In this document: positions 1-33,480 of the stretch, in pieces
Layout: each line of letters starts with the position of its first letter
Position numbering within the stretch: the first letter of the stretch is position 1
Assembly (NCBI GenBank): GCA_964510625.1
Contig: CAZEBD010000001.1
Coordinates: 1 to 46,126, forward strand
Direction of reading: 5' to 3'
Length of the DNA: 46,126 nucleotides
Source of the DNA: an uncultured Planctomycetales bacterium
Lineage (GTDB): Bacteria; Omnitrophota; Gorgyraeia; Gygaellales; Profunditerraquicolaceae
Notes under the pieces: model-generated
Database searches by the model: none
Told to the model about the DNA's origin: nothing
What the model saw: the letters and a program-made list of their open reading frames with translations, nothing else
Made by a program: the position numbers and the translations under genes

Positions 1-3000
1 ATATTCAACCATTGAGTAAAATATTGCTCGGCTTCCCAGTCGCCCAAGGTTTTAAGTTTACTAATTGCTTTTCCCATGCTTTTTTCATCATTTTGATTAG
101 CACACTTTAATATCCCCCTTAACTCTTTATATTTTTCTTGAGAAATCATCCTTCCCTGTGGACCAGAGTATAGCCAGTTTATCGCTGCCCGGAAGAATTC
201 TTTACCTTCCCCAGTTCCTAAAATGGTAGGCAGATGCTTACGCGCTTCTCTCATAGTCCTAACCTTGTGGTATCCCATAATACGCGACATATCCTCTTCT
301 ACCACTCTAAAGAGTAGATAAACAACTGCACGGAAAGAAACCCTGAAGTTTAGAAGCATTATTGGGATCGCGATAAATATCACTGCTAAAATGGGTAATG
401 AGGGGACGCAGAATATTAAGGCAACAGTCCAGGTAATAATATTCCATATTAACCATGCACCGATCGCCGCTTTCCAGAAACGTGAAGCTATTTTATTCTG
501 TGCCTTATCTGAATCTGTTAACTCCTTCTTAGCATTTTCATCCAGTTTAAAACGGAACAATGCTGTTAAGAAATACCGAAAAGGATAAATAAAGAACTGG
601 AATACAAAAGTAGATATAGGATAGGTATAATGTATAAGACCATCTTTTTTTCTCATTTCTTTTAGGGTATCTCTAATTTTATCTATTAAAAGCTCACAAA
701 GCATACGTTGTTCCTGAGTAAGAGTAGCATAATTCCAACTTACAGGAGGAACTAGCGCTTTGCTATCTATTAACTTCTGCAAATCCAATTCGACTATGGG
801 ATCTTTACCTGCTTTTGAGAAACGTTTGAATAGATCTTTAAATTCTCCGGTGCTAAAAATATAACCACCTTTAAACTTATAAAACCCTTTTGCTCTTAAT
901 AGGTCTAGAATGGAACCAATTCCGCTATGGTAACCAATAATGGACTTCCAAAACACTATTTGTTTGTCAATAAAATCTACATCAATTATGGCTAAGGTTA
1001 TTTGAAATGTTTTGTTTCCAAACCTATTATAATTAGCACGAATTGTATAAGTATTGCCGTGATTATTCGGATTGATTGTTCTAGAGTTTCTCTTTATCCA
1101 CTGATCCAAAGCCTTGGCCTGCTCGGCATCAAGATTGCCATCAGGTATTGCTACTACTCTTTCTCCCGCTGCAGGATTAATTCTTCCTGCTACCCTATCT
1201 TGCGCGTATTGTATAGTTTTCTCTTCTAAATAATCAATAAAAGGCGTAAGGAAATTGAAATCAGCAATATATTTCTCTAACCAGACTCTGTAGGCATTTT
1301 TCTTCTTAATTGCGCCAAGATTCGGCTGTATTCTATGGTCAACACCCTGAGCCAACCTTACTAACTTTTTATTAGTTATACCGAATAGTCTAGATAACCA
1401 AGACCCTGACCAGACACCCAGTCTTAATAATATAAAGATGAAAACAAGACCTACGGCTGTTGCTAATAGGATGGCGATTGAAGGTAGATAATTATGCCCT
1501 CTAGTTAAATTATGGCCAGTACTATTTTGAGGAATATGTTTCTGGAATTGAACTTTTAAATACTCTACGAAGCTATTCAAGGCACTGCCATTCTTATAAT
1601 CTTTCCAAAGCACAGGATTATATTTATCTGCTTTTTCGAAAATTGTTATACCGTATTTAAAGTAAGTTCCATCTCTTTGGGCCAACTTTTCCGCTTCGGC
1701 TTGCTCCATAGTTTGAATCCGCGGTGAATTTTTATCAATTTGAACGCCGTTAACAAAGTTAACTGCATCATAAGCTTCCCCGCTGTCATTTATATTTCTT
1801 GCAAAAATCCAATATTCGCCGGGTTTATCATTAAGAAATACTATATAATAATTATAAAGCGGACCTTTCGACGACTCGATTACACCATTCGTATCAGTAA
1901 CCTCGGATTTAAGAGGCAGCTCTTGACCATCAAAATACACCTTTACAGCAGGATTCCTGCTCCAAGTACCTTCATTAACTTGATAATACAATCTGCCGTC
2001 CATGCGAAGAGCAATCTGGGTTATTGATTCTCGGGCGGGATCTTCATACTTAGTATCATATACCCTGATCTTTTCACCATTACTATCTGTTTCAATACTA
2101 AAGTTATATACCCTACCGGTTATGCTGTTAGTATTATTATCAAATTCAAATGTATTCTCATATCCTCTCTTTTCATTAGACCAATTAATATTAATCACTG
2201 TATGATAATTATCCTTCATCATTACATAATCCTTAGTCGGGCTGCTGGGTAGATAATAATAGTATTCAATCTTGCCGCTTCTTCCGGTAGAGGCATCAGC
2301 ATAGGTGCGCTTTACTTCTCTGAAGTTCGTATTCAACAAGGTATTCTTATCAGCATCGGTCATACCGTTCTGTTCCAGCTGAGCTAAGATTTGCTGTCTG
2401 GCTTCCTCAGATGCAATCCCTGGGAAGGCTTTCCCACCTATAGTCTGATTCGTATAGGCCAGGAATTCCTCTCCATCAATAACGTTATACATAGAGGTGG
2501 CTACCGCTTCATCTCTGGTTTTAGACCATTGATCAACTTTTAAGCGGGTTTCAGGCACCCAGCGAACATTAATATCCACAGACTCGCCTTTTTCACCCTG
2601 CGGGGCTTTATATGGAGTGGCCAAGGTTTCAAAATGCCCATGCTCCTCATAAACAAAATCACCTAATACACGTACATCCGCATACTGCCAGCGATACCAT
2701 ACCTCCCCAGTATTGGGATCACGGTAACGCACACGGTAGTGCTGAATATCGGTATCAGCAGGCAGGCCATATTCCTTATCACCATTATCGGTATTAAGTA
2801 TTTCCAATACTTTCTGTCCACTGGCTTTATCCACAAAATATCCCGATAATGCCATTGGGCTTAATTCCATAAATCTGGAGGTAATAAATACCGTGCCTCT
2901 ATCAATAGCCAGGATTCTGCCGTAAGAATCGCCGGGGACAGAATATTCAATAAAGGTAGAATCACCTAATTTTGCATCAGTAGCCACCATTTCAAAGTCA

Positions 3001-24000: not shown

Positions 24001-26393
24001 TTTTTATCTTGATAATCCATCCTTGTTACTGTTGTCTGCTTAGGAGCCATTTTAAAATAAACAGCTACTTGGGCTTTAGGGGTATTCAATCCTGTAGCAA
24101 CCAATACATTCCATTGAGGTAAAGGAGTAGTTCCCCCTTGAGGATTAATTAAATTAGGATTAAGTAAATTAGTTCTGACCTGGACTGCAGCATAAGCTAC
24201 GCCACCTTTTGAGATTGTTATCGCATCATCTGTAGTATAAGGAAGAACTGGCTTTGAAACGGTCCAACCTAAAAGAGTTCTAGCTTCTAATTGACCAAAA
24301 TTACTATAATTGGGCCTAAAATCTAATAAAGGATTGCTTGCGTTGGGACCTACTTCTACCCACAGATGGGCCTGAGGAGAAAAATACTTAGTTTTATCTG
24401 CAGAATCTGGTGTTAAACTAAAATCACTACCTGAATTTAATCCATAGATAGAAAGAGTTTGGGGTGTATACCCACCTAATTTATACCCTTCTTTTCTCAG
24501 TTGTTGCTGTAACTCACGATCATGAAGAATAAACCTACCATATTTCTTCATTAAATTAACGCTGTCTACAAATACAGTAATATCTCCGGTTTCAGTTCTC
24601 CCATAATGGACTGTTGATAAATCAAACGCTACCCCATTTATGGACTTCACACCCGAAAGGGGTCGGCCGGTATGAATAGCGTTTAAGAAACTATTCGTAA
24701 CTAAAGTAGCTTTAAGGGTATCAAGATAAAGACGCTCATCTGCAGCGGCTCGCTTAACTTCCGCTGGAGATATAAGAACATTGCCATACATATCGTAACC
24801 CGCTGGTTGCCAAGATTGTCTTGCAGGAGTAGTTGCTGCTGTTTGCTGTCTTACCGGGCCTACTGGTTGTTTAGTTTGAGTTGTTGCCGGCTGCCTCATA
24901 AAGCTGGGAGCAATGGGCGATTGAGACAAAAGATTAAAAGGATTTGCAGGAGTAGCTGCTGGCTGTTGTCTTACCGGGCCAATGGTCCGGGCAGGAGTAG
25001 TTGCTGCTGGCTTGGTTGTAGAACCAGGTACAAAACTCAATAAATTCGGCATCCAAGCAGGAACAGCCGCTGGCTGCTGTCTTACCGGGCCTACTGGTTT
25101 TTTAGTTTGAGTTACTACCGGTTTCTTAGTTGTAGCGGTCGGCTTCCAAGTAGACATAAAGGGTAATTGAGGCAAAAGATTAAAAGGATTTACAGTAGTA
25201 GTTTCCTGCTTCTTTACCGGGCCTACTGGTTTTTTAGTTTGAGCTGCTGCCGGTTTAAAACTAGAGACAAAAAACGACGGCATGAATATTGATATAGGTA
25301 TAGTCTTTTTAACAGTCACAGGCTGCTTAAAGACTACACTAACAACCTTAGGCACAACCTTAGGCACAACCTTAGGCACAAAACTAGGCACAAAACTAGG
25401 AAAAGAACCTTGTGGCTTAAAGGGATTACTAACAACCGGCGGCCGATAAACAACCCTCGTAAACGAATTAGTAGTCCGCCAGTAGTCACCTTTAGGTACA
25501 TATAAATAGGTGGTTGTTTTAGCATACTGTACGCCATTATTCCAATAATAATTGGTAGTAGTGTATGTCTTTGCGCCTAAAATTTGTTTGCTTTCCGCAG
25601 GGTCTAAAACCTTTAGACCTGAAGGAAGAATACTGGTTAAGGCATAACTACTAAATTTAGCTAAGAAGGTATCTTTCGGCAGGAACTCTTCGCGGTGATT
25701 ATCACTATAATAAACTTTATCTTCAGTCACCCTGGTGACTAAAATGTAATGCTCTTCGGTCAGGTGAGCGATAAACGGAGTAAGCGAAGCAAGGTCAGTA
25801 TCAGCCTTAACTTTGACCGGGTAGAGATCTGCTCCGAAAAATTTGGCGGCCTGGGAAAGGGCATAAAGGGATGTTTTAATAACTTCAGGTTGGCCAACCG
25901 GCTTAGTTACGTCATTGAGAATATCCACCGTAAGGGCCATAATCGCGATGTCCCCTTCAGCTGCCTTAATGCCCAAATAATTCAAATAATCATACAGAGC
26001 CTTTGAACCGCAGGGTTTTCCCTTTAACCACTCAGTAATCTCATCGATTCTCTGATTGGACATTTTCAAAGGCTTATCTAGATTTATGGTCAGATTGGAC
26101 GATACCTTTATTGCGTTTATGGGTTTATTGGCTATATCTTTGAGGATATTACGAATGGCTAAAGCAGTATCAATACTATTAAGATCTTTGAGATATCCCG
26201 GGGCAATTGCGCCTATAGCCGGCTTATTCCAGATTACCCGCCAGTCATATTCAACGGCCTGGGCGACCTGCTCAGGCAGGAAGACCGCCACAATAACAAA
26301 AGCAACCATGCGGATCCAAGTCTTAAAACTTGACTTGAATTCCTTCTTTGGTTGCTCAATCCGGACTTCTGTCTGTGGCATTTGTGTATTCAT
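1..26393 (-). CDS. Giant multi-domain membrane-associated protein; 5' end complete, 3' end runs off the window (>=8,797 codons inside the window)
   Basis: ATG at 26393-26391 with an in-frame TAA just upstream (26399-26397). I hand-translated the frame whose codon first bases lie at coordinates = 2 mod 3. It is stop-free and protein-like in every sampled stretch: 26393-25300, 22260-22200, 21720-21600, 18780-18540, 18360-18300, 17340-17280, 15060-14940, 14580-14400, 12240-12120, 10380-9900, 8280-8040, 5603-3700 and 120-3. The ORF track shows no long complete minus-strand ORF across these 26 kb, as expected if a single ORF lacks a stop inside the window. Confidence 0.85.
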   Translation of the reverse strand, partial: MNTQMPQTEVRIEQPKKEFKSSFKTWIRMVAFVIVAVFLPEQVAQAVEYDWRVIWNKPAIGAIAPGYLKDLNSIDTALAIRNILKDIANKPINAIKVSSNLTINLDKPLKMSNQRIDEITEWLKGKPCGSKALYDYLNYLGIKAAEGDIAIMALTVDILNDVTKPVGQPEVIKTSLYALSQAAKFFGADLYPVKVKADTDLASLTPFIAHLTEEHYILVTRVTEDKVYYSDNHREEFLPKDTFLAKFSSYALTSILPSGLKVLDPAESKQILGAKTYTTTNYYWNNGVQYAKTTTYLYVPKGDYWRTTNSFTRVVYRPPVVSNPFKPQGSFPSFVPSFVPKVVPKVVPKVVSVVFKQPVTVKKTIPISIFMPSFFVSSFKPAAAQTKKPVGPVKKQETTTVNPFNLLPQLPFMSTWKPTATTKKPVVTQTKKPVGPVRQQPAAVPAWMPNLLSFVPGSTTKPAATTPARTIGPVRQQPAATPANPFNLLSQSPIAPSFMRQPATTQTKQPVGPVRQQTAATTPARQSWQPAGYDMYGNVLISPAEVKRAAADERLYLDTLKATLVTNSFLNAIHTGRPLSGVKSINGVAFDLSTVHYGRTETGDITVFVDSVNLMKKYGRFILHDRELQQQLRKEGYKLGGYTPQTLSIYGLNSGSDFSLTPDSADKTKYFSPQAHLWVEVGPNASNPLLDFRPNYSNFGQLEARTLLGWTVSKPVLPYTTDDAITISKGGVAYAAVQVRTNLLNPNLINPQGGTTPLPQWNVLVATGLNTPKAQVAVYFKMAPKQTTVTRMDYQDKKGRTWSLAGFDGTAPIHLETKIDNLTMQVNYTRFMQLRGNITEAKAGIFFGDPIALDSTSTYGNGASNAPAAGWKPFTGWEADLLSPIQGAFNQAHNRFYENLYRPSNAAPGKDYVVGRDWVFSQDKVLAGYGGMIGGVNKTYLFSHRQVVADNFNTTGYDRYREVVFNKAGNPSSGIKSINIRAGKENIRIQDLMTQVLPKYGNASYQQLPVLDSAGNPLANGKTELKLFSMTNTQGQRFLEYNMNLNKYVFNAYQSGYSQGVSNGLAWLDKGSSYVGNSYVSLIGSQQGDFVETYRTGNGFGENSFQHLYFMDYAYKNNSWTNQIHPEFQIGSAAINDRYTKKELVDSLNYYAGFQSLYKDKINDANDLLQANIQAKELDAKLKANTSAANQLPAWDGVSEIRSHEQSRWEKTKDWFSRTFSMDRMYETKGKAQRAMDDYNSLAKEAAATGFMLDVERRWIDSIGSDWDLSRSMKAGEGLGLSNGKTATDIFSFLTQPENNIITKYGEAIQVIQGDFNTRLDKYNTVLVPKVESSFRTAEEYAEDLNSTPLPMLENMPMVHVMQYAYARTLEKDMKGGADPYHLVAEAYSSLPVGYGGWDLARDIALSGLDMYFAGAAGSFLKLGGSVIGQAIRGGATAAASGSTAALAEAAAARQAFTQALKRGVTLGLGNVALGQATSFAMNGKPLTNVNSNITLFATGFLSGSASNFARWGEAAGFSNLSRAVISQAALGGEVYLATGLVSDAVKGFKSGQQLTPSSIWGVYNKGLVYGAMAGGIFGGAGAVASSLSRVATSSWLTSSWAKLGLSTLGGAVVFPGAKTILEGDLSKFGANYSDWTNYARGGIIGLGLHGGYASGILSKSTGGLSNLSKVGWGLAKFSYGGGVTFAALPGVDLLKTGINYLRGQDGAYWNKADGFSYTKFGLDSAGSFALGGMTALYLGKANLAKNLSEYSVGGSEQATALFKTVKFNKFGNSLSGAELLYNRALAGALDWMLVSPAFTVGQGFWEGVKAKAGYYGSGLSAESQKLVNSSGLNSWFLTKGYYVKENGEMKLVLNSVTPKDILISGIEGPRSGLWMKPMIEVAQVRTSTANLGTVGGVGEKFINTLFRRPASVIKELRIGEKLATKVEAGDAKITFKDAVSNASAKFRQSVLEGANGSPKFSRLASAYPKTAKVLNKVIEGMQWADSNLITMPGIVTGIDTVIDIIDDQLLKATKATPIYDEIAPGQYSRQGYMSTGIKEVAKWIPFLRMSNFTPDKDLQLLTKGFTNDRGKFTSFEAFKNYEKLSSVVKEFGSISNALTKGDKQVASEITRVLTDQIGQGVHIADKAQAETMINSRSLESKERNITIVLPSGQETMLRVTLNDSLRLRAAQERLELFRTQGQYEEGLVKISSLNKRIGAELKRDYANRIERISALKGQVEREGLTKIEADFLNKQLVYENAYLNGSSLASVSSLGRAMYESLQRLNLELVKPDLLEALVKSADIKLEDGVLRSASKLLEKDIKNGLVNEKIVKDNVKLYLLDAFRRGLDKVSTPDIERLTNILKETREEIDAAAQTKSRLLDSRDYFMNKAKLSDDPGRDKILRERVLRSIEKKLRSIDAQIKTLETSSLRELNGQTNLKTGLFSKMKLGSQVATALYPELAVAPVLRAIDKSFENLSDRLEGGRIILAENGKDLVFMAKDRSDQYIAEGFNARVDLNKDSIQRKLEEITKSGIGKTEKIDKIFGLVARVIFEQVKKDTKGKIDLGRSNEQLGMIAGLLKENSVAQKTSGGKTLGFLAELIIRGVLSERTAGVRLNQLWVVKPGEAQMTIGGKGAIDFKELASLFGYELINGSSYYNEGNRSTAKLIDTLINPSKITILDQTTLGFLSLTKDASLREALMRQNTVRFDEFHLPFSSKVTYITADTQKIVDEAVIANTAKVQEALDPIMQNSGVAREQSSEGIEIKVTNKIEEAKGPGAYVYRDKGEYRLNQKAHDLAVEKIKTALGLKTDAEAKLFIKAYFDAFFADGSTVAVQNGEIKPVENGNVELNRVFSDVKFIAALYNRFIAEGKTIAREKLVYSETSSQGTVAGVLSLFNKGASIAGASGTLREVELMHALHLGRGITEVTQTEYKADVTEAKTEGEIKKAIIQAVSKRGPKGLLIIAKDAGQFEAVYNVLKDLKLELGKDLEVIDNFTLEHEVGKIANSMEGKVVLSNIKGATGIDYKGNNDLILVDAHNLSTSELLQALGRTARNQGETSKKSVFYQKDLLRDNVASPERSELYNKITESGVYGKKASELNLRRNADILQAEEISDALVHHIREAAYSKGLIEPLKLMISNTKGERQVKLEDILHEVLNIKEGDIDLSLGVSRDTNELIRESLQKVASQAEAVFGRIAKGDFGNNVTSQAAVIRDISRRLVNQADYAAIRARRDISIREATNLVEIAGVAKHSRFQEKILPDEMGKSAAKNQKAVAIVNSISFARTRAGERPLTRSQKDEVYKALDMVLSENGTRGSPEALSLVAKYVPALANVANSVSYLTLNTPESTQAVAELINNRVFASPDFADYSYDEKQRLADIFVGALNPALNYSDMLTVNTAYILMDKDAREKLKKDNYLSQAFLLNPTQFAEDMISPNWFLSSINAVKTALNNRKSLLLGSYIMFVSNNRLNLAQGDLKNIAKLDFNELDKVTGNILVRVGKESGGSLLEEVEYFLLKLALSKPNLKLLDFQKAKALWQTIDNLGFSAKELKEFNISNLLPAVAKKYEVLRIINKLLAKSDSELAVLIKGIVAKIDKKQKITLSDLGNNAELADSVIKLVDPFAPSFEVVKDRAVRLGETSVIAENDSIPFNSLLSSENEFLKFKTHVDRFTASIKGWVDRITTSMDADDIAKFSNTLTEDVNNSDLPDVKKKELISYIDAEAKSVLQDKLITAIAKGVLDAKKAAGETDDKPVGAKPNEIPSATTAPAVDTESTVVAVESTVQPQAAQPGENLATKYYGQVSQATGSNQGISAPFDTYRYIYHGTSIEHVLQMLFDSNGNLYSPDGNGDAVTLFTRMFTPVFANKFSDGIVLEFDSWALTENGVKLEAFGETSTHNKVPLRFLTDRAKVKLVQRLAESGALSSFDADQKNKIAELLGIDSLDQLTNQPSRQLPAETTSSVIKDLPEQPNNTGFTRIETALTVFAVGVTGAALPIIYGSGAGGVKGLIGLAVGVGLVGGGLVIKWLFNKYRNNKQSSPEQQTPAERTSPAIPAVPGQTVPNAPSVSASSTGLEVGAVLGGQTSQQEAMARSSFIHTISTQITEGYGRILSGLAPPVALAKAFLSKVLGASKSRGNVGALVVIVSSSVANAVRSTVELVGKLLGAQSANSRNGVEGQDAEGASSNVGNTSVEGVSINDSRVILGNSIGNKIARIISRITGSRSASAEADSKTGAEVLVVSTSTNGFVASIKAAVMIAARYLSRTKGEAENAENRGSIRAYGFSNDFSKASSYLKTLLFNHASHKKDGSLNRFGKITQKLAGSDRVKDSVAVKPIVEESELVKEVAAALEELTVAQAKRESIDRWNEHRKIELTQAEFIKLIDVIQAKKTELWEENGKKGNLEDYTQEAVEEISDWLAAQNKIRAAVGVVYRVGGDMDIVNAALKIIFDGKKYDGSKILEAGIQTRKLNKDEVDAYFTWLDAQNQAEVFIMAQKAIAIAREAIEKSGEAIEKSGEAIETAEESVGINKKNFEWMNGENCFTTIAPMPIRERLEAKRREVEAAGGMWTLRVAVQAYNDLVDQYNASHENQLEHLFVARVAPGRINEFIDQKVKFEIVEKLENSNFHAVMPFGYKVGKKGTFISAFGGNIANRKRLVNVAKFNFSGAGVITLVAESFNDKVEASEKENRVTEECYKDTDSAPIKGDSNNNAAQSADRKSDSSDTNSTTGSNGTTGTSSTTGITGTTGSTGSTGNSNGNSSSGFGSSNGDSSNGNAGMASIGLILAITAIAIAVSTALTVGGTTGVAAGAVAVVVALTAVITGANKNVGNLPNANRVEGLPQTGKVTMEHPRADTSDKVTSNSRAPPAGIFNDLSNALRNLKDNLERELARTAFRNNIVSRYTAAQLRNAIKALNDTIIALDRIANNPALFVIHFDMIARRREDDDIAAALLKKLIGAIKNRGLNNLHGRYFRAARLIAHRYGLPYASMIELTNTFILLNETDEFINTLKEESYVRAEALKARENKVNSTRINLAAGRISLTNENTVASEILNNVLNILDNSVGGYAQGAEIVVNAIKLAFGEARAGLANIAGALFSSVTGALSRIGSFLISLPILVAQLYELGRAITNGQTTGTENKTTAVQAAVNTVAVSLSNAVNAVVSFLANVSRELSNAIEVLPVADTVDVPAGLPVAGSLAASNGVKSANSHTVITGLIASVRKLISNKVSKSEVKEEGQSLIISKLVGIGSAIISLAPPVVGLVARFVANAINQLTNVIKERRNENGRHIKNERRISSDRHAVQNTQTSGIKTGRDSGNDEFAQYFSRKAEQLNRLYKTFSSLAKQGVQFVRAHAVAASLATIAFQIAVILSQITLTLPSAIISLLGIVVTAIFVKGGVTCAQSRSKTSVWTTSLTTPRIIQPSLQPVSKVVIRSESFWSKIQVQFMFVMVGLGTNWSGRSPPTSKAASRKPARLSQSTKSTQSTGLTNFIKALTSPTVAGKRVAPVIVRKSVQPLLQRVISGALATITMFFASVAPAMAASNGTNANAGFNLNYLWYLSVLAVAAAGFLSYRRKARQNVLRNAPGKNGFAASFLHRPNDNSLEFGDKYFLIYAKDFPYFKHETKNLPVVDGLVTHISATPLKLALKNYPELKYGGIVAPAPRSRYGFKIVKKNTNSVFSPITWGFILGSIVMSTGDVFNSLDIEYLFNYGLLGAFLFMTGASLVAVNRYRKNESRIKPVIMNPIVLISYFIMLAMYISGYFFNGWTLPPHGYSQDFLGPIVWSAVIISGAPVFFKKGALAALSVSHNKYRALVFKAAVSLFTFSAGTELAQGLGWIHGTFDWLDFVAAGLGSLAIFVIANISYARSRSSRGHNWRPVGQFVGALRYPSVAKDFVRMGLATYRIALNHIERTNGIRAPPVIRNIRALFYPIASRKDGQISYSVEIEDEAVRNQVQLHEAQATERKAIVAQAQAFKNKNAGAAAATLKAAVKSRLSNLSFTIKFIGYGLIDELSGTFKNILTKRGVVNLVFAFIIASSVFATTLNSFAGNSTALTAAITETQQGTGEFSKIQDIIESDTDDIGYGGLNIDNPQVSYDNQGRYSFIKDGQGRIRQEYKYSADGLTGTILNYDENGKVIETGVVTYDKNVPIYVTREDLVKEVPLPVEKQQKDPDYSALPSYQGTVGQRVSGNKGDWVWGIYDWWTNSEDKAAAQAAITAWGEDHPALFTSGNLNVVYTIPANYSNLGNEKLNVMIVKEGLTQADEDAIKAWSKVNKDLFTEKNANTNIVYTIPENYNGLSNKELKVIIVQENLTTADENAIAAWSDVHKDLFTEANAKSSTVYTIDADYNGLVNKKLDIMIVQEDLSPENEAAVAAWSKDNQDLFTEANANTNIVYTIPEKYNGLNNDELKVTIVQENLTTADENAIAAWSDAHKDLFTEENANNNAVYTIEANYNGLGNKKLDVMIVQENLTTADEDAIAAWSKVNQDLFTQENANNSIVYTIEADYNGLGNNVLKVTIVQENLTTADEDAIAAWSKVNQDLFTQENANNGTVFTIPANYNGLQNSKLNVFIVYEATTDADENAIIAWSNANQNLFNENYLGTTHIIPANYNGLGNKALKVEIQLNKDWKDSNDPDLSGKSAGRKALEDAEAKLVAALNEFTQAKAEFDTLTAKYDMETKQTELEAAKSKLSELEQAYEDAKAAYETLVTADPAVAAAKEAMDNAQAELTTAEQNITDLEKKLEDANKLVSDLSQQFVEAKAVLDQKQIAYNDSKAAFDVTSGDLTDPAVAAAKEAMDNAQAELTIAEQNAADLSKQVNDANRVVSDLMVEIDAAKIIRDQKEIDYNNAKAAYETASANLADPAIAAAKEVMDKAQADINDQKDLIVNLEKNYNDLKAKYDELVKQWGFNFNPDSHVTPYDLSVAQDTLDAKQATVDQFKEEVKKLREAISNEIKYIAAALEFTAKAQNITAKAQNITAKAQNITAKHQSINAQAQIYGWQWQPWNTMKQYPVLWRPIEIRWSGEKSASRIETFTYSQVAVFDPNFGENGAYVIPDYGFYYKHTEKAQAYTGYTIITDEEYSRVVVVNGKEELRVKFKTTKIKDLEGNVYPVSSARYIKDPLNIGVDDVFLYQLRNFMSKFGVEFYYSETNSNTKTQRTDNINNTTNEFIANLGNEGIVKFSVYEKIMAGTGEVIYLLYDGVHGDPRMTITKDKVNFTYPEFTFPKENVETKTIDMEYYFHTPALEQTAFDQQAWSANSSDKFHGVTLSFGVPWTDRQDIFLSLESLGELKAGTEASSADKIKAANELLDQMEQNRINVVRVYNTMTGDLWDALANHHIKVIQVIPNLDDRNNPGQDIKSRTFLNYVAMYKDHPAAFIWELGNEYNYHPEWFDNNIDNWYIEAEKAAGFIKQIDPNHAVSCSFGYSGTGSIDGDFSAAVSDVPSADIWGLNIYQWDNPTEILLEAKKLANGKGIYLSESGADSWNEYLQKEDQAGQAKAAANIWQAAKNADILGVTYMEAFDEWWKSTADPKVQDNYGTHFGVPYDNFGNEEWFGWWNVKGEPKEVVGTMQAIWNKEDALNKLFSPNMKWLGGSFNGENFTNKVEAMIDTATASGDINVYRQEAEPVNEEQSAVDHYQRVFSYFKKVPNIPYLLPAYGIITDFAGQVHLKTEFEFYNPWAASENKYVKFEKSNLTKFQTLSRDGVPTGYLYREPGDDFGRTWLEVSLSGEDIYLVDSFDTQNVYQPKVAYVLKWQGEDKGYVAIKQMKAQLDENGLVAGVEVKTVAQDLNLNAEQKMDLKRAIAQTIGNLTPTEVDELTDDEINKLVPDDFEMVATDAKLGDSTFIEYSVPGDSYGRILAIDRGTVFITSRFMELSPMALSGYFVDKASGQKVLEILNTDNGDKEYGLPADTDIQHYRVRYRDPNTGEVWYRWQYADVRVLGDFVYEEHGHFETLATPYKAPQGEKGESVDINVRWVPETRLKVDQWSKTRDEAVATSMYNVIDGEEFLAYTNQTIGGKAFPGIASEEARQQILAQLEQNGMTDADKNTLLNTNFREVKRTYADASTGRSGKIEYYYYLPSSPTKDYVMMKDNYHTVININWSNEKRGYENTFEFDNNTNSITGRVYNFSIETDSNGEKIRVYDTKYEDPARESITQIALRMDGRLYYQVNEGTWSRNPAVKVYFDGQELPLKSEVTDTNGVIESSKGPLYNYYIVFLNDKPGEYWIFARNINDSGEAYDAVNFVNGVQIDKNSPRIQTMEQAEAEKLAQRDGTYFKYGITIFEKADKYNPVLWKDYKNGSALNSFVEYLKVQFQKHIPQNSTGHNLTRGHNYLPSIAILLATAVGLVFIFILLRLGVWSGSWLSRLFGITNKKLVRLAQGVDHRIQPNLGAIKKKNAYRVWLEKYIADFNFLTPFIDYLEEKTIQYAQDRVAGRINPAAGERVVAIPDGNLDAEQAKALDQWIKRNSRTINPNNHGNTYTIRANYNRFGNKTFQITLAIIDVDFIDKQIVFWKSIIGYHSGIGSILDLLRAKGFYKFKGGYIFSTGEFKDLFKRFSKAGKDPIVELDLQKLIDSKALVPPVSWNYATLTQEQRMLCELLIDKIRDTLKEMRKKDGLIHYTYPISTFVFQFFIYPFRYFLTALFRFKLDENAKKELTDSDKAQNKIASRFWKAAIGAWLIWNIITWTVALIFCVPSLPILAVIFIAIPIMLLNFRVSFRAVVYLLFRVVEEDMSRIMGYHKVRTMREARKHLPTILGTGEGKEFFRAAINWLYSGPQGRMISQEKYKELRGILKCANQNDEKSMGKAISKLKTLGDWEAEQYFTQWLN
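3760..4700 (-). other. Clan GH-A (GH5-like (beta/alpha)8) glycoside hydrolase-type domain of the giant protein
   Basis: Translation gives RINVVRVYNT, then HPAAFIWELGNEYNY with the candidate acid/base Glu at codon 4337-4335, then KGIYLSESGADSW with the candidate nucleophile Glu at codon 4055-4053. The two Glu residues are 94 aa apart, a typical NE...E spacing for clan GH-A. Confidence 0.6.
5529..5600 (-). repeat. 21-bp in-frame tandem repeat x3.4 (AKAQNIT heptads)
   Basis: The plus-strand unit ggcggtgatgttctgggcctt occurs at 5529-5549, 5550-5570 and 5571-5591, with a partial fourth copy. The minus strand reads TAKAQNITAKAQNITAKAQNITAKH. Confidence 0.9.
6057..6355 (-). repeat. 225-bp (75-aa) repeat inside a coiled-coil-like segment (about 5610-6620) of the giant ORF
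   Basis: 60 bp are identical between 6071-6130 and 6296-6355, encoding ADPAVAAAKEAMDNAQAELT. A third, diverged copy lies at ~5860-5900 (ADPAIAAAKEVMDKAQADI). The surrounding sequence is rich in A/E/K/Q/L/D. Confidence 0.8.
6625..7880 (-). repeat. 8 tandem 159-bp (53-aa) repeats in the giant ORF
   Basis: The unit is approximately ADE(N/D)AIAAWS.....DLFTE.NAN...VYTI.A.YNGL.N..L.V.IVQENLTT. The period was measured from 6841 versus 7000, which is 159 bp. A 92-bp stretch is identical between 6841-6932 and 7000-7091. Confidence 0.9.
8340..10430 (-). other. Polytopic membrane block of the giant protein (about 10 hydrophobic helices)
   Basis: Translation gives successive hydrophobic segments: AVAASLATIAFQIAVILSQI, LPSAIISLLGIVVTAIFV, ISGALATITMFFASVAPAMAA, YLWYLSVLAVAAAGFLSY(RRKAR), ITWGFILGSIVMS, LFNYGLLGAFLFMTGASLVAV, IVLISYFIMLAMYISGYFF, LGPIVWSAVIISGAPVFF, FVAAGLGSLAIFVIANI and VVNLVFAFIIASSVFATTL. 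Confidence 0.6.
10018..10284 (-). CDS. Nested 88-aa ORF in an alternative frame inside the giant ORF; hypothetical protein with its own Shine-Dalgarno
   Basis: Listed in the ORF track. On the minus strand the ATG (10284-10282) is preceded by AAAGGAGGTGTAAC. The segment is a GC-rich island with C-ending codons. The translated sequence looks globular (MCPIKIEDIRMDHIVDYTKNY...). The giant frame stays open across it. Confidence 0.5.
   Translation of the reverse strand: MCPIKIEDIRMDHIVDYTKNYSTFATAREQSSNKIRIFLVQDSGAVHVRNGGTWHELVGPLAADVKSRIEEARTLVPVYKVNSIYGVN
12911..12970 (-). repeat. 21-bp in-frame tandem repeat (about 3 copies) in the giant ORF
   Basis: The plus-strand unit tttctatagcttctcctgatt occurs at 12911-12931 and 12932-12952, with a diverged third copy. 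It encodes EAIEKSG EAIEKSG EAIETAE. Confidence 0.85.
17250..18750 (-). other. SecA-like DEAD-motor / SF2 helicase-type ATPase domain embedded in the giant protein (aa ~2550-3050)
   Basis: Four motifs were checked codon by codon. Motif I is SVAQKTSGGKTLGFLAELI (18686-18669). Motif II is RFDEFHLPF (DEFH at 18329-18318). Motif III is IAGASGT (17750-17731). Motif VI is LLQALGRTARNQGETSKKSVFY (~17325-17280). From memory they are collinear with SecA MKTGEGKTL / DE.D / GMTGTA / RGRSGRQGDPGSSRFYLS. Confidence 0.7.
20900..22260 (-). other. Gly/Ala/Ser-rich hydrophobic (glycine-zipper-like) block of the giant protein
   Basis: Checked translation examples are DPYHLVAEAYSSLPVGYGGW and SIWGVYNKGLVYGAMAGGIFGGAGAVASSLSRVATSSWLT. 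The region contains many GxxxG/GG-containing hydrophobic segments. No family is assigned. Confidence 0.45.
24846..25400 (-). repeat. In-frame Pro/Lys/Val/Thr-rich repeats within the giant ORF: a 12-bp microrepeat plus about 4 imperfect ~40-aa units
   Basis: The plus strand shows aaccttaggcac x3 then aaaactaggcac x2 at 25343-25400, which reads FVPSFVPKVVPKVVPKVV. The unit cttaccgggcc(t/a)a(c/t)tgg... recurs near 24850, 24969, 25081 and 25214, giving KKPVGPV(R/K)QQ motifs. Confidence 0.75.
25644..26051 (-). other. C39-like (papain-fold, double-glycine-peptidase type) cysteine peptidase domain of the giant protein
   Basis: Translation gives EWLKGKPCGSKALYDYL (Cys128, codon 26012-26010), LTEEHYILVTRV (His215, codon 25751-25749) and VYYSDNH (Asp231). 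The Cys-His spacing is 87 aa and the His-Asp spacing is 16 aa, as in C39 peptidases. The domain follows an N-terminal hydrophobic anchor, WIRMVAFVIVAVFLPEQVAQA. Confidence 0.6.
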
Positions 26394-26527
26394 CTTTTAC
26401 TTAATGCAATTAAATAAAAAATAAATTTTTCCCCTTACCCCAAGTCTTTTTAGATTTTTAAATCCACTCTTCATAAGGGTCACCAGTTCTATTTTTAAAA
26501 CCTTTTTAAAAACTCTTATTAAGATTT

Positions 26528-26557
26528 GAAACAAAATCGAGTTGTCAATTCCAACTC
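26528..26557 (-). terminator. Terminator-like hairpin plus U tract forming the putative riboswitch expression platform
   Basis: The minus strand reads GAGUUG-GAAUUGA-CAACUC followed by GAUUUUGUUUC, immediately 3' of the aptamer P1 strand. The stem is short (6 bp). Confidence 0.4.
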
Positions 26558-26562
26558 TCGTC

Positions 26563-26652
26563 GGTCTGGCAACCCGGCTATCCTGAGTGTTGCATTGATT
26601 AAGGACCCGTGGCTTTGTGTCCTTAGATTACTCTAAGTTTACCTTTTTGACC
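26563..26652 (-). promoter_or_regulatory. c-di-GMP-I (GEMM-I)-like riboswitch aptamer in the giant-gene leader
   Basis: The minus-strand RNA reads GGUCAAAAAGGUAAACUUAGAGUAAUCUAAGGACACAAAGCCACGGGUCCUUAAUCAAUGCAACACUCAGGAUAGCCGGGUUGCCAGACC. It shows a P1 of GGUC/GACC, a GGUAAAC element, a GNRA-capped hairpin (CUUAGA-GUAA-UCUAAG), ACAAAGCC.CGGG and GAUAGCCGGGUUGCC. These elements are collinear with the Vc2 GEMM-I sequence as I recall it. Confidence 0.6.
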
Positions 26653-26669
26653 TCTTCAACTTACACTCA

Positions 26670-26698
26670 AATATAACACCTGAGATAGACGCTGTCAA
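26670..26698 (-). promoter_or_regulatory. Sigma70-type promoter for the riboswitch and giant gene
   Basis: The minus strand reads TTGACA (26698-26693), a 17-nt spacer, then TATATT (26675-26670). This lies about 10-20 nt upstream of the aptamer. Confidence 0.55.
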
Positions 26699-26794
26699 GT
26701 AAAAAATCGCCAATTTTGGTAACGCTTTCTTTCTCCGGTCCTGCTGCTAAAATCGCAGCCATTCTACCGTAGAAACACACACTGCAAAACATCC

Positions 26795-27467: not shown

Positions 27468-27505
27468 GGGAAACGTCCCCTTTTGAGGGAAACGTCCCCT
27501 TTTTA
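27468..27505 (-). repeat. REP doublet in inverted orientation; right inverted repeat of the RAYT unit, overlapping the tadC stop codon
   Basis: GGGAAACGTCCCCTTTTGAGGGAAACGTCCCCTTTTT is a perfect 38-bp reverse complement of 26795-26832. Confidence 0.9.
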
Positions 27506-28360: not shown

Positions 28361-28361
28361 A

Positions 28362-29207: not shown

Positions 29208-29224
29208 AATATCCCAATTTTTAT

Positions 29225-29389
29225 TTAGCCGGCCTGCTCGCCGCCGCCGATGACATCGATAGACTGCCGGAATTTACCTTGCAGGCTGCGCTTGTAATAT
29301 GCTCCCGCCAGGATTAATACTGCAGTGACCACCGCCAATACCAGCAGATATTCCATCACCGACTGCGCTTTAAAATTTAGTTTTTCCAT
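29225..29389 (-). CDS. flp: Flp-family prepilin (54 aa; below the ORF-track size cutoff)
   Basis: Hand translation gives MEKLNFKAQSVMEYLLVLAVVTAVLILAGAYYKRSLQGKFRQSIDVIGGGEQAG*. It has the A/QSVMEY class-III signal motif and an upstream AAAGAGGA. Confidence 0.8.
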   Translation of the reverse strand: MEKLNFKAQSVMEYLLVLAVVTAVLILAGAYYKRSLQGKFRQSIDVIGGGEQAG

Positions 29390-29525
29390 ATCCGTTATTT
29401 TATCCTCTTTGGGTTAAGATAGTCACTAAAACCAAACATAATCTCACAATAGCAGATTTATGAAAAAAAGCTACTTTTTTTATTGTGTGTTGTTTTGGAA
29501 AGTGTGCGGATTGGAAAATAAGATG

Positions 29526-31355: not shown

Positions 31356-31380
31356 AATTCCCTCCTACTATCTTGCCAAA

Positions 31381-31578: not shown

Positions 31579-31587
31579 TTCCTACCT

Positions 31588-32193: not shown

Positions 32194-32229
32194 TTCTCGC
32201 CTCTTGATTTATGACTACCGGCTCAAAAA

Positions 32230-33143: not shown

Positions 33144-33155
33144 TATATTAAACCT

Positions 33156-33449: not shown

Positions 33450-33480
33450 ATCCTCCTCCTAATCTTTAATTTCCGCTTTT

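What the first reader, a model, noticed from the sequence alone, without database searches (positions are those of the whole stretch)
1..26393. Single >26.4-kb ORF encoding a motor-peptidase-glycosidase giant membrane protein
One minus-strand frame is open from ATG 26393 to the window edge (>=8,797 codons, C-terminus still missing). Numbering from that ATG, the recognisable modules run in this order:
- TM anchor, aa ~27-45.
- C39-type thiol peptidase triad C128/H215/D231.
- Pro/Lys/Val repeats, aa ~335-515.
- About 800 aa unassigned.
- Gly/Ala/Ser hydrophobic block, aa ~1380-1830.
- SecA-like DEAD motor, aa ~2550-3050.
- About 900 aa that look helical.
- Two GxxxG-rich TM helices, aa ~3950-4000 (ALTVFAVGVTGAALPIIYGSGAGGVKGLIGLAVGVGLVGGGLVI).
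- Ser/Gly/Thr/Asn low-complexity segment followed by TM helices, aa ~4720-4800.
- Polytopic membrane block, aa ~5320-6020.
- YD-type repeats (SYDNQGRYSFIKDGQGR...NYDENGKVIETGVVTYD).
- 8 x 53-aa repeats.
- Repeat-containing coiled coil.
- Clan GH-A glycosidase signature.
- About 700 aa that look beta-rich.
- Further TM helices near the window start.
An ATP-dependent, necessarily cytoplasmic motor, a peptidase, and an adhesin-like stalk carrying a glycosidase in one polypeptide, encoded beside an expanded Tad pilus locus and behind a c-di-GMP-type leader, does not correspond to any characterised system I know. Giant genes next to Tad loci have been reported for Omnitrophota-like nanobacteria, which suggests a cell-cell attachment or predation apparatus. 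That link is inference.
Basis: partly seen in the sequence, partly recalled or inferred. Interest (0 to 1): 0.92.

Follow-up and report, generated by a model that had tools for sequence, protein, structure and literature searches.

The report
Omnitrophota giant envelope-protein gene, truncated
This is the first 8,797 codons of one of the giant membrane-protein genes already described next to Tad pilus loci in the tiny, probably predatory Omnitrophota bacteria, and comparison with relatives points to a c-di-GMP riboswitch and a likely self-cleavage site that neither giant-gene preprint nor the Seymour et al. paper mentions.

Summary
The minus-strand frame is open from ATG 26393 to the window edge (8,797 codons, no stops). 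The window is a whole 46,126-nt contig, so the 3' end is lost, and one homologue runs at least 3,300 aa further.

Most module calls hold:
- The C39 peptidase passes Pfam's cut-off, and C128 and H215 are invariant.
- The motor is SecA-like. Its profile hits SecA best (E 1e-7), and the top 16 fold matches are SecA (TM 0.69).
- The glycosidase is a clan GH-A barrel with both catalytic Glu (GH158, E 5e-14).
- The eight 53-aa repeats, the TM blocks, the Tad operon and the c-di-GMP-I riboswitch are all present.
- The YD repeats lack support. The N-terminal 'TM anchor' looks more like a cleavable signal peptide.

This is a new member of a known kind. Omnitrophota giant genes with a C39 domain, a divergent SecA module, many TM helices and an upstream Tad/T2SS-like locus were described in 2023-2026.

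Two features are not mentioned in those papers:
- A 1.16-kb cassette (promoter, riboswitch, terminator, signal peptide, C39) is 75-81% identical in 11 loci.
- It ends exactly at a conserved double-glycine motif (G273-A274|K275), the C39 cleavage signature. After it the protein bodies are unrelated.

The parts
3..26393 (-). Giant ORF, 8,797 codons, truncated at its 3' end by the contig end
   Evidence: No stops, and an in-frame TAA one codon upstream. The window is the whole contig. Homologues are open to the end of the DNA held.
25573..26732 (-). Conserved 1.16-kb 'head cassette': promoter, riboswitch, terminator, 5' UTR, signal peptide, C39 domain and double-glycine motif
   Evidence: A single blastn block at 75-81% identity in 11 loci. 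In 9 of them the lower boundary is at 25573, and 25568-25588 in all 11. Protein identity is 75-87% up to aa 274, then none is detectable. Ka/Ks is about 0.1.
26670..26698 (-). Sigma-70-like promoter, TTGACA-17-TATATT with an extended TG
   Evidence: 11 of 12 consensus matches, 18 nt upstream of the aptamer. This is a consensus match only.
26564..26652 (-). c-di-GMP-I clan (GEMM-I) riboswitch aptamer; best Rfam model is c-di-GMP-I-GGC
   Evidence: 66.5 bits against a gathering score of 59. Present in 17 related loci at the same position. 7 of 20 pairs carry compensatory changes and essentially none is broken.
26529..26557 (-). Terminator-like hairpin plus U-tract, the putative expression platform
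   Evidence: The hairpin GAGTTGG...CAACTC followed by a T-run is conserved in the aligned loci.
26259..26393 (-). N-terminal signal-peptide-like segment, aa 1-45: basic n-region, 11-residue hydrophobic core, PEQVAQA|V
   Evidence: Hydropathy peak at aa 29-47. The segment is nearly invariant and the small-x-small site is conserved in all 22 sequences. Cleavage is inferred.
25629..26066 (-). Peptidase C39 domain, about aa 110-255, with catalytic C128 (CGSKAL) and H215 (EHYILV)
   Evidence: Pfam PF03412, E 1.9e-7, 31.4 bits against a cut-off of 22. C128 and H215 are invariant. There is a weak profile match to the double-Gly protease 6mpz.
25572..25616 (-). Double-glycine leader-like motif, aa 260-274: LKVLDPAESKQILGA, with predicted cleavage at G273-A274|K275
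   Evidence: Conserved in 23 of 23 sequences, and conservation falls from 0.6-0.7 to 0.08 right after it. It matches the published L(-12)x3E(-8)...V/I(-4)xG[GAS] rule. The full motif occurs once in the protein.
24834..25436 (-). Pro/Lys/Val/Thr-rich repeat linker, aa 320-520
   Evidence: Composition P14 V12 T11 K9 % and the sequence itself.
20904..22256 (-). Gly/Ala/Ser/Leu-rich semi-hydrophobic block, aa 1380-1830, with glycine-zipper-like segments such as aa 1567-1589
   Evidence: Conserved in other giant proteins: P0005, P0007 and P0010 and L013, L023 and L024.
17199..18806 (-). SecA-like ATPase motor, aa 2530-3065: NBD1 (K2573, D2689/E2690), a PPXD-like insertion (about aa 2700-2880) and NBD2 (Q3026, R3030)
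   Evidence: The catalytic columns are invariant. The profile's best PDB hits are SecA at E 1.1e-7. The model has pLDDT 79.6. The top 16 Foldseek hits are SecA or SecA2, with TM 0.69 to the SecA-SecY-substrate complex.
15834..17198 (-). Conserved all-helical post-motor region, aa 3066-3520, starting with a 47-residue helix; possibly equivalent to the SecA scaffold
   Evidence: Conserved in P0002, P0003, P0009 and others. Secondary structure. SecA alignments lengthen to 750-920 columns, but the TM-score is only about 0.2.
14391..14522 (-). TM hairpin, aa 3958-4001 (GxxxG-rich)
   Evidence: Kyte-Doolittle peaks of 1.77 and 1.90.
12003..12278 (-). Gly/Thr/Ser low-complexity stretch (aa 4706-4727) followed by a TM hairpin, aa 4749-4797
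8346..11180 (-). Polytopic membrane block, aa 5072-6016, with about 9-11 hydrophobic segments
   Evidence: The exact number of segments is not resolved.
6615..7886 (-). Eight tandem 53-aa repeats, aa 6170-6593
   Evidence: TRF finds a 159-nt period, and the protein repeats line up in exact register.
5394..6614 (-). Coiled-coil region, about aa 6594-7000, containing a 7-aa x 3.5 perfect repeat
   Evidence: Weak SMC, OEP and surface-exclusion matches. TRF finds a 21-nt repeat at 5527-5599.
3744..4745 (-). Clan GH-A (GH158/GH2-type) TIM-barrel glycosidase, aa 7217-7550, with acid/base E7353 (WELGNE) and nucleophile E7447 (YLSESG)
   Evidence: 505 homologues, best E 5e-54. Both Glu fall in invariant columns. 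PDB profile hits: GH158 at 5e-14, then GH2 barrels.
1425..1481 (-). TM helix, aa 8305-8323, closing the roughly 2,290-aa putative extracytoplasmic region
   Evidence: Kyte-Doolittle 2.87.
3..974 (-). Conserved module aa 8474-8797, including the TM segment 8648-8676
   Evidence: 52-53% identity to L001 and L002.
27503..45982 (-). Upstream Tad/Flp-type pilus operon: TPR protein, PPIase, CpaB/RcpC, secretin-TonB_C fusion, TadZ-TadA fusion, DUF192, orf677, four Flp/class-III pilin-like genes, three small ORFs, TadE/G-like, TadB and TadC
   Evidence: Pfam. Every related locus whose upstream DNA reaches that far has TadB and TadC directly upstream, and loci with about 10 kb upstream also show the pilin cluster and further genes in the same order.

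Best explanation
This is the 5' portion (at least 8,797 codons) of an Omnitrophota giant envelope-protein gene of the kind described by West-Roberts et al. 2023, Seymour et al. 2023 and Nielsen and Lui 2026.

Shown here:
- The gene has its own promoter-like site.
- It has a c-di-GMP-I-clan riboswitch followed by a terminator-like hairpin.
- It lies immediately downstream of a Tad pilus operon.

Inferred mechanism:
1. A cyclic-dinucleotide signal gates transcription of the very costly gene by attenuation.
2. The N-terminal signal peptide starts export of the C39 'head' and the Pro-rich linker.
3. An odd number of glycine-zipper helices in the Gly/Ala/Ser block returns the chain to the cytoplasm, where the SecA-like ATPase must sit.
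4. That cis-encoded motor helps push the protein's own very long extracytoplasmic loops through the Sec channel.
5. The TM hairpins and the polytopic block anchor the protein.
6. A loop of about 2,290 aa (aa 6017-8304) is displayed outside the membrane. It holds the 53-aa repeats, the coiled coil, an intact GH158/GH2-like glycosidase and a further domain. It binds and hydrolyses glycans of a host or prey cell that the Tad pilus has brought close.
7. The C39 domain cuts at the conserved double-glycine site G273-A274|K275, separating the conserved head from a body that differs completely between related strains.
For: Class membership:
- The upstream gene set matches the published description.
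- The synteny is kept in related loci. TadB-TadC lie directly upstream in all that reach that far, and the longer loci keep the full gene order.
- Named relatives are Candidatus Omnitrophota.
- Other proteins of 1-8 kaa share the C39 head, the Gly/Ala/Ser block and the motor in the same order.

Riboswitch:
- It scores above Rfam's gathering score.
- It is present in 17 of 17 assessable loci whose head is at least 55% identical.
- It shows covariation.
- The terminator hairpin is conserved.

Motor:
- The P-loop Lys, the Walker B DE and the motif VI Q/R are invariant.
- SecA is the best sequence-profile hit.
- The top 16 fold hits are SecA or SecA2, with TM 0.69 over about 580 columns, including the PPXD-like insertion.

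Glycosidase:
- There are 505 homologues, many of them secreted or T9SS-sorted enzymes.
- Both catalytic Glu are invariant.
- GH158 and GH2 are the best solved relatives.

Cleavage site:
- The motif is conserved in 23 of 23 sequences, exactly where conservation collapses.
- The DNA homology block ends within a codon of it in most of the 11 loci.
- It fits the published recognition rule.
- The C39 catalytic Cys and His are invariant.
Against: - Nothing here is experimental. Expression, cleavage, ATPase activity, glycosidase activity and the riboswitch ligand are all inferred.
- Topology is unresolved. Only Kyte-Doolittle hydropathy was available. With an exported N-terminus, no clear TM helix lies between aa 47 and 3958. 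The model therefore needs an odd number of weakly hydrophobic glycine-rich helices around aa 1400-1800.
- Pfam's SecA_DEAD model does not hit this sequence even at E 10.
- A scaffold or two-helix finger is only suggested, so docking on SecY is not shown.
- Position -7 of the leader-like motif is Ser or Ala rather than Leu.
- D231 of the proposed triad is not conserved.
- In PCAT transporters the C39 domain works in the cytoplasm, whereas here it is predicted to be exported.
- Whether the riboswitch turns the gene on or off was not determined.
- The best Rfam model is the GGC variant. None of the papers searched or read here gives its ligand.
Confidence: 0.7

Rival explanations
1. The ORF is a polyprotein precursor. 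It is translated once and then cut at many sites into separate soluble and membrane proteins (peptidase, translocase, glycosidase and others) that work independently. The 'giant protein' would then never exist as a functional unit.
For: West-Roberts et al. raise this possibility for C39- and S8-bearing giants. A C39 domain with intact catalytic residues is present. At least one convincing cleavage motif exists.
Against: The full double-glycine leader motif occurs only once in 8,797 aa, and shorter versions occur at chance frequency. No S8 or other protease domain was found. The modules are interleaved with TM hairpins, which suggests a single membrane-threaded chain.
Confidence: 0.15
2. The SecA-like module does not translocate this protein itself. 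It is a repurposed SF2 ATPase that acts on another substrate, for example by exporting or injecting other proteins, remodelling the Tad machine, or acting on nucleic acid.
For: Some family members weakly match the DEAD, ResIII and Helicase_C models. Cas3, UvrB and RIG-I-like helicases appear lower in both hit lists. No SecA wing domain or C-terminal tail was identified.
Against: SecA and SecA2 occupy all top 16 fold hits, with a TM-score (0.69) far above that of helicases (about 0.42). The model includes the SecA-specific insertion between Walker B and motif III. The module is found almost only inside giant multi-TM proteins.
Confidence: 0.1
3. The ORF is an assembly or annotation artefact: a chimeric contig, or a long non-coding open frame.
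For: It comes from a metagenome contig and ends at the contig edge. The central part, about aa 3500-6180, has no detected homologue.
Against: 8,797 codons without a stop at 42% GC. Five regions have independent homologues in the same order in other assemblies. There is purifying selection on the head. 21 of 22 related loci also carry long open ORFs.
Confidence: 0.01

Closest known systems
Omnitrophota giant proteins ('Archaeovorin-type'; West-Roberts et al. 2023 bioRxiv 10.1101/2023.11.21.568195; the V. archaeovorus LiM 39,678-aa protein; Seymour et al. 2023 PMC10066038; Nielsen and Lui 2026 bioRxiv 10.64898/2026.06.07.730766)
   Same: - N-terminal C39 next to a signal peptide.
- A divergent SecA DEAD plus preprotein-binding module.
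- Many TM helices.
- Glycoside hydrolase content.
- An upstream locus with rcpC, gspD/E/F-type genes, a Rotamase_2 PPIase and class III signal peptide genes.
- Poor sequence conservation between genomes.
   Different: - Only 8,797 aa are visible, so the size class is unknown.
- No glycosyltransferase, methyltransferase, NUDIX, dockerin or TSP3 domains occur in the visible part.
- The papers do not mention a riboswitch, a double-glycine junction, or a conserved head cassette in front of variable bodies.
SecA preprotein translocase ATPase (e.g. PDB 6itc, 5eul, 1tf5)
   Same: Two RecA-like domains with the P-loop, Walker B and motif VI. There is an insertion at the PPXD position. The predicted fold superposes best on SecA engaged with SecY and substrate.
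   Different: - It is embedded about 2,500 aa inside a giant membrane protein.
- Sequence identity to SecA is about 15%.
- Pfam SecA_DEAD is not matched.
- The wing domain and C-terminal tail are not found.
- A scaffold helix is only suggested.
Double-glycine (C39) peptidase domains of AMS/PCAT bacteriocin exporters (e.g. LahT150, PDB 6mpz; ComA)
   Same: Pfam C39 membership and the Cys/His catalytic motifs. A substrate-like segment carries hydrophobic -12 and -4, Glu -8 and Gly-Ala at -2/-1.
   Different: - There is no ABC transporter.
- The peptidase and the putative substrate site are in one polypeptide, about 20 residues apart.
- The domain follows a signal peptide, so it is probably periplasmic rather than cytoplasmic.
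- The 'cargo' is more than 8,500 aa long.
LapA / LapG / LapD system of Pseudomonas (own knowledge, not tested here)
   Same: A giant surface protein whose N-terminal retention element is removed by a cysteine protease at a small-residue dipeptide, with the whole process under c-di-GMP control.
   Different: - LapG is a separate C93-type protease.
- Control is post-translational, through LapD.
- LapA is a T1SS substrate with no TM helices and no ATPase.
- This is an analogy of logic, not homology.
GH158 / GH2 catalytic TIM barrels (e.g. PDB 9oro, 6ncw)
   Same: Clan GH-A signature with a conserved acid/base (NE) and a nucleophile Glu. Identity to stand-alone or T9SS-sorted enzymes of about 335 aa is 35-45%.
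   Different: It is a module inside a giant protein. Family assignment (GH158, GH2-like or a new family) and substrate are not determined.

Membership tests
Omnitrophota giant membrane proteins (West-Roberts 2023) | Encoded in an Omnitrophota genome | tested here: met
   Every close relative of TadZ-TadA that carries an organism name (70-87% identity) is Candidatus Omnitrophota/Omnitrophica, apart from one labelled only 'bacterium'. So are the motor-region hit and the L002 record.
Omnitrophota giant membrane proteins (West-Roberts 2023) | Very long single ORF (their set: more than 30,000 aa) | tested here: inconclusive
   At least 8,797 aa, truncated by the contig end. A homologue continues at least 3,333 aa beyond the equivalent point.
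Omnitrophota giant membrane proteins (West-Roberts 2023) | Numerous TM helices | tested here: met
   About 17-20 hydrophobic segments by Kyte-Doolittle. No dedicated topology predictor was available.
Omnitrophota giant membrane proteins (West-Roberts 2023) | N-terminal C39 peptidase near a signal peptide | tested here: met
Omnitrophota giant membrane proteins (West-Roberts 2023) | Divergent SecA DEAD / preprotein-binding module | tested here: met
Omnitrophota giant membrane proteins (West-Roberts 2023) | Upstream T2SS/Tad-like locus with rcpC, gspD/E/F homologues, Rotamase_2 PPIase and class III signal peptide genes | tested here: met
Omnitrophota giant membrane proteins (West-Roberts 2023) | Downstream pilZ genes and carbohydrate import genes | not testable with these tools
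   The contig ends inside the gene.
Omnitrophota giant membrane proteins (West-Roberts 2023) | Archaeovorin domain set (glycosyltransferase, methyltransferase, NUDIX and others) versus Dockerin/TSP3 type | tested here: inconclusive
   Only peptidase and GH are found in the visible part, with no dockerin or TSP3. The L002 continuation has CofD, ROK and HAD modules.
SecA translocase | Two RecA-like NBDs with Walker A Lys, Walker B DE and motif VI Arg | tested here: met
   K2573, D2689/E2690, Q3026 and R3030 are invariant in 17 sequences.
SecA translocase | Preprotein cross-linking domain inserted in NBD1 | tested here: met
   There is an insertion of about 180 aa between Walker B and motif III. 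The model aligns over about 580 columns to SecA with TM 0.69.
SecA translocase | Helical scaffold domain with two-helix finger | tested here: inconclusive
   A 47-residue helix follows NBD2, and SecA alignments lengthen to 750-920 columns. However, the model has pTM 0.32 and the TM-score is about 0.2.
SecA translocase | Matches Pfam SecA_DEAD (PF07517) at its threshold | tested here: not met
   No hit even at E 10 for the sub-segments, so this is a SecA-like module and not a SecA orthologue.
Peptidase C39 (double-glycine peptidases) | Pfam PF03412 above the gathering score | tested here: met
   27.2-31.4 bits against 22.
Peptidase C39 (double-glycine peptidases) | Catalytic Cys and His | tested here: met
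   C128 and H215 are invariant and align with the 6mpz motifs.
Peptidase C39 (double-glycine peptidases) | Third catalytic residue (Asp) | tested here: inconclusive
   The D231 column varies (D, Q, R, N, E) among homologues.
Peptidase C39 (double-glycine peptidases) | Fused to an ABC exporter | tested here: not met
   No ABC transporter domain in the ORF.
Peptidase C39 (double-glycine peptidases) | Substrate with a double-glycine leader, and its cleavage | tested here: inconclusive
   The sequence motif is present in cis and conserved. Cleavage cannot be tested here.
Clan GH-A glycoside hydrolases (GH158/GH2-type) | Acid/base Glu (NE motif) and nucleophile Glu conserved | tested here: met
   E7353 and E7447 fall in invariant columns.
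Clan GH-A glycoside hydrolases (GH158/GH2-type) | Significant similarity to characterised members | tested here: met
   GH158 9oro_A at E 5e-14, and GH2 barrels at 1e-11 and weaker.
Clan GH-A glycoside hydrolases (GH158/GH2-type) | Assignment to one CAZy family, and the substrate | not testable with these tools
   No CAZy/dbCAN library and no assay were available.
c-di-GMP-I (GEMM-I) riboswitch | Rfam gathering score reached | tested here: met
   RF03167 at 66.5 bits against 59. In related loci, RF03167 or RF01051 is above its threshold.
c-di-GMP-I (GEMM-I) riboswitch | Structure supported by covariation | tested here: met
   7 of 20 pairs carry double compensatory changes, and only one pair is broken, in one sequence.
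c-di-GMP-I (GEMM-I) riboswitch | Binds c-di-GMP | not testable with these tools
   The ligand of the GGC variant model was not found in the papers searched.
Tad/Flp pilus system | CpaB/RcpC, secretin, TadZ, TadA, TadB, TadC, Flp-type pilins and TadE/G-like pseudopilin | tested here: met
Tad/Flp pilus system | Prepilin peptidase (TadV/CpaA) | tested here: not met
   No Peptidase_A24 hit among the window's ORFs. It may be encoded elsewhere in the genome.

The most novel reading that the evidence does not exclude
The conserved 1.16-kb cassette defines a polymorphic giant-effector system. A cyclic-dinucleotide riboswitch decides whether the giant gene is transcribed. A cis-encoded, exported C39 peptidase then cuts at G273-A274|K275 and releases or activates a body that has been swapped or has diverged beyond recognition between closely related Omnitrophota. 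The logic resembles polymorphic toxins and LapA/LapG, applied to proteins of 10,000 aa or more. This would give the first concrete, testable cleavage point and regulatory input for bacterial giant proteins.
Probability: 0.35. Interest if true: 0.8.

Novelty: new member of a known kind. Interest (0 to 1): 0.55.

Why it matters
Giant genes take up a notable share of the very small Omnitrophota genomes, and they are thought to mediate attachment to host or prey cells and their digestion. [quoted passage not shown]

This locus adds little as one more example. Its comparison with 22 related loci gives three directly testable handles:
1. A riboswitch of the c-di-GMP-I clan sits in a fixed position before the gene. 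That ties expression to second-messenger signalling, the same signal that the downstream pilZ genes reported by others would read.
2. There is a precise candidate self-cleavage site for the C39 domain.
3. A conserved head is fused to unrelated bodies. This points to cassette-like diversification, as expected for molecules under host-range or arms-race selection.

Tried and rejected
- **Pfam and NCBIfam on 1,100-aa tiles.** Only C39 came out as significant. The Acyl-CoA_dh_N, OEP, SMC, DUF5033 and HTH_22 hits were judged to be repeat, coiled-coil or chance matches.
- **Canonical Walker A regex [AG]xxxxGK[ST] and a DEAD box.** No hits in the motor region. This was misleading, because SecA itself has MxTGEGKT. 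The motif here is QKTSGGKT.
- **Single-sequence Pfam scan for SecA_DEAD.** Negative even at E 10.
- **Word-indexed homology search of the motor.** One hit only. The exhaustive HMMER search was needed.
- **Exact-match look-up of TadC to find the source contig.** Not on record.
- **Self-BLAST for internal repeats.** It returned nothing useful. TRF and manual register were used instead.
- **Extended motor plus post-motor structure model.** Low pTM, so the scaffold question stays open.
- **IS200/RAYT-like transposase remnant in the spacer.** I read it by eye, but Pfam does not confirm it.
- **Ligand of the c-di-GMP-I-GGC variant.** Not found in the papers searched.
- **Further double-glycine sites inside the body.** None above chance.
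- **Riboswitch in the divergent locus L022.** Absent even at E 1.

Full report
**1. Observation**

The minus-strand frame from ATG 26393 to base 3 holds 8,797 sense codons with no stop. An in-frame TAA lies one codon upstream, and no other frame has an open stretch longer than 725 codons. The window is the entire public contig: the neighbouring TadZ-TadA protein is on record at 100% identity on an NCBI contig of exactly 46,126 nt. The missing 3' end therefore cannot be recovered from this record.

Independent assemblies keep such frames open. In 21 of 22 related metagenome loci the homologous ORF runs to the end of the DNA held, up to more than 3,600 aa. The single exception stops 13 nt from its contig end. 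In a Candidatus Omnitrophota MAG contig (L002) the homologue is open over 7,041 aa and continues at least 3,333 aa beyond the point that aligns with our last residue. The real gene is probably far longer than 26 kb. That continuation carries CofD, ROK-kinase and HAD-hydrolase modules.

**2. Surroundings**

Upstream, on the same strand, lies a complete Tad/Flp-type operon. In order it encodes:
- a TPR protein
- a PPIC-type PPIase
- CpaB/RcpC
- a secretin fused to a TonB_C domain
- a TadZ(ParA-like)-TadA fusion
- DUF192
- an unassigned 677-aa protein
- four Flp/class-III-signal pilin-like genes
- three small ORFs
- a TadE/G-like protein
- TadB and TadC

A 1.1-kb spacer follows, and its proximal part is organised:
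- a near-consensus promoter at 26698 to 26670
- a c-di-GMP-I-clan aptamer at 26652-26564 (66.5 bits; gathering score 59)
- a hairpin with a U-tract at 26557-26529
- the ATG about 135 nt further on

**3. Modules of the protein**

*C39 peptidase.* Pfam PF03412 passes its cut-off. C128 is the only Cys in the first 400 residues. C128 and H215 lie in motifs that are invariant in homologues. The proposed third residue, D231, is not conserved.

*SecA-like motor, aa 2530-3065.*
- An exhaustive HMMER scan of 1.84 billion cluster representatives finds only 34 relatives. Nearly all lie inside proteins of 1,000-7,800 aa.
- In an alignment of 17 of them the invariant columns are the P-loop Lys (GGGKT), the Walker B DE and the motif VI Q..R.
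- The profile's best hits among solved structures are SecA (E 1.1e-7). DEAD-box, Cas3 and UvrB proteins follow.
- The AlphaFold model (pLDDT 79.6, pTM 0.71) has SecA or SecA2 as its top 16 Foldseek hits. The best are SecA bound to SecY with a translocating substrate (TM 0.68-0.69 over about 580 columns), while helicases score about 0.42.
- The insertion of about 180 aa between Walker B and motif III sits where SecA carries its preprotein-binding domain.
- Pfam's own SecA_DEAD model does not match. It is a SecA-like module, not a SecA orthologue.
- The conserved helical region that follows begins with a 47-residue helix, and it lengthens the SecA alignments to 750-920 columns. The model is too poor (pTM 0.32) to claim a scaffold or two-helix finger.

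*Glycosidase, aa 7217-7550.* It has 505 homologues (best E 5e-54, 35-45% identity). Most are stand-alone or T9SS-sorted enzymes with the GH2-type TIM barrel. Both clan GH-A catalytic glutamates, E7353 in WELGNE and E7447 in YLSESG, fall in invariant columns. GH158 is the best solved relative (E 5e-14), followed by GH2 barrels.

*Other modules confirmed.*
- the Pro/Lys/Val linker
- the Gly/Ala/Ser block, which is conserved in other giants
- two TM hairpins, a polytopic block and two C-terminal TM segments
- eight 53-aa repeats in exact register
- a coiled coil

*Not supported or not tested.* The 'YD-type repeats' are not supported. The 'beta-rich' 700 aa were not tested.

**4. What it is**

The gene set and the domain kit match the published description of Omnitrophota giant genes point for point:
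- an N-terminal C39 next to a signal peptide
- divergent SecA DEAD and preprotein-binding domains
- numerous TM helices
- an upstream locus with rcpC, gspD/E/F homologues, a Rotamase_2 PPIase and class III signal peptide genes

Named relatives are Candidatus Omnitrophota. The architecture recurs. P0008 (which matches the L022 ORF at the same coordinates) has the same head, with the motor about 2,600 aa in. P0005, P0007 and P0010 are collinear through the Gly/Ala/Ser block and the motor. The finding is therefore a new member of a known, though experimentally almost untouched, kind.

**5. What comparison adds**

I fetched 22 metagenome loci that encode the N-terminal module. Four results follow.

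a. *Synteny.* Every locus whose upstream DNA reaches that far has TadB and TadC directly upstream, and the loci with about 10 kb upstream also show the pilin cluster and further genes in the same order, followed by a spacer and the giant gene.

b. *Riboswitch.* A c-di-GMP-I-clan aptamer lies on the same strand in 17 loci. In 16 of them it sits about 90-270 nt before the start codon. In L018 it lies 1.7 kb upstream, ahead of two extra ORFs.
- That is every assessable locus whose head is at least 55% identical to ours.
- L005 and L017 lack the upstream DNA.
- The three most divergent loci have none, and L022 has none even at E 1.
- The aligned aptamers show compensatory changes in 7 of 20 pairs and essentially no broken pairs. 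The terminator hairpin is conserved.
- No paper read here mentions a riboswitch.

c. *Conserved head, unrelated bodies.* Protein identity is 75-87% (Ka/Ks about 0.1) over aa 1-274 and then disappears. In most loci nothing is detectable at E 1e-3 over the next 3,000 aa or more. The bodies are also largely unrelated to each other.

At the DNA level one block, window 26732 to 25573, is 75-81% identical in 11 loci. It starts just before the promoter and, in 9 of the 11 loci, ends at nt 25573, inside the codon of A274.

d. *Double-glycine junction.* The last 15 residues of the head read LKVLDPAESKQILGA in ours. In all 23 sequences they follow h(-15)xxh(-12)xxxE(-8)xxx[IV](-4)xG[AG]. The published recognition rule for double-glycine C39 proteases is Leu(-12)x3Glu(-8)Leu(-7), Val(-4), then Gly-Gly/Ala/Ser (PMC6363468). 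Only position -7 deviates. Column identity falls from 0.6-0.7 to 0.08 immediately after the motif.

The full motif occurs once in the whole protein. Neither giant-gene preprint mentions such a site, and one states that cleavage points are unknown.

e. *N-terminus.* The N-terminal hydrophobic segment has an 11-residue core, a basic n-region and a conserved small-x-small site (PEQVAQA|V) in all loci. That fits a cleavable signal peptide better than a TM anchor.

**6. Mechanism**

*Shown:* the modules, their catalytic residues, the conserved cassette and the synteny.

*Inferred:*
1. Cyclic-dinucleotide-dependent attenuation gates transcription.
2. The head and the Pro-rich linker are exported.
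3. Weakly hydrophobic glycine-zipper helices around aa 1400-1800 return the chain to the cytoplasm, so that the ATPase has access to ATP.
4. The cis motor assists translocation of the long loops.
5. Residues 6017-8304 (repeats, coiled coil, glycosidase) form an extracytoplasmic loop between the polytopic block and TM 8305-8323. This loop acts on glycans of a cell held by the Tad pilus.
6. The C39 domain cuts at A274|K275.

*Weakest links:* the topology (only hydropathy was available), the absence of any experimental data, and the unknown direction and ligand of the riboswitch.

**7. Verdict**

The system is not unprecedented, so the finding as written rates as a new member of a known kind. The riboswitch cassette and the double-glycine head/body junction are specific and testable, and I found no mention of them in the three papers on these genes that I read. 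They lift the interest above that of a routine re-identification.

Noticed in passing
window 26800-26831, 27031-27043, 27468-27499, 37506-37537: The 13-mer GGGGACGTTTCCC occurs 7 times, against 0.03 expected by chance. All copies are intergenic, often as adjacent pairs in direct or inverted orientation, and none occurs in the 24 related loci. It looks like a genome-specific REP-like element.
   Followed up: partly
window 27086-27455 (+ strand, two frames): The spacer between TadC and the giant gene reads by eye like a frameshifted IS200/RAYT-type transposase remnant (MPRSSRIIEGKSAIHVMCRGNN... / ...HLWQGRYKS...YIELNPVRAGIV). Pfam gives no hit. Part of it (27162-27304) is 77% identical to the spacer of L012.
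   Followed up: partly
window 40059-41669 (-): The Tad secretin carries a C-terminal TonB_C domain (Pfam E 4e-14), which is an unusual fusion. Nielsen and Lui mention TonB-domain genes near some giants.
   Followed up: no
window 37898-40057 (-): TadZ (ParA/MinD-like) and TadA (T2SSE ATPase) are fused into one 719-aa protein. All 120 hits listed are of similar length (684-723 aa), and nearly all those that carry an organism name are Omnitrophota.
   Followed up: partly
L002 14126-21124 (homologue continuation beyond the window's end): The homologous giant ORF continues with CofD, ROK sugar-kinase and HAD-hydrolase modules. These are cytoplasmic-type enzymes embedded in the giant chain. This hints at what the missing C-terminus here may contain.
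   Followed up: partly
L018 3167-5906: In this relative, an overlapping pair of small ORFs (97 and 64 aa) that looks like a toxin-antitoxin pair, plus two further ORFs, lie between TadC and the giant gene. One of the further ORFs (393 aa) is Pro/Lys/Val-rich. The riboswitch sits directly before that 393-aa ORF, 1.7 kb upstream of the giant gene start.
   Followed up: partly
window 5527-5599 and 12900-12967: Two short 21-nt tandem repeats (3.5 and 3.2 copies, 100% and 93% matches) lie inside the ORF. They encode 7-aa repeats and may be sites of length variation.
   Followed up: no
window 35382-37415 (-): A 677-aa protein with no Pfam match is conserved in the same position of the Tad operon in related loci, at 32-70% identity.
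   Followed up: no
whole giant ORF: Cysteine is almost absent: about 8 in 8,797 residues (0.1%). The catalytic C128 is the only one in the first 400 aa.
   Followed up: no
window 46002-46079 (-): A tRNA-Glu (CTC) gene lies at the upstream end of the contig, just before the TPR gene of the Tad operon.
   Followed up: no
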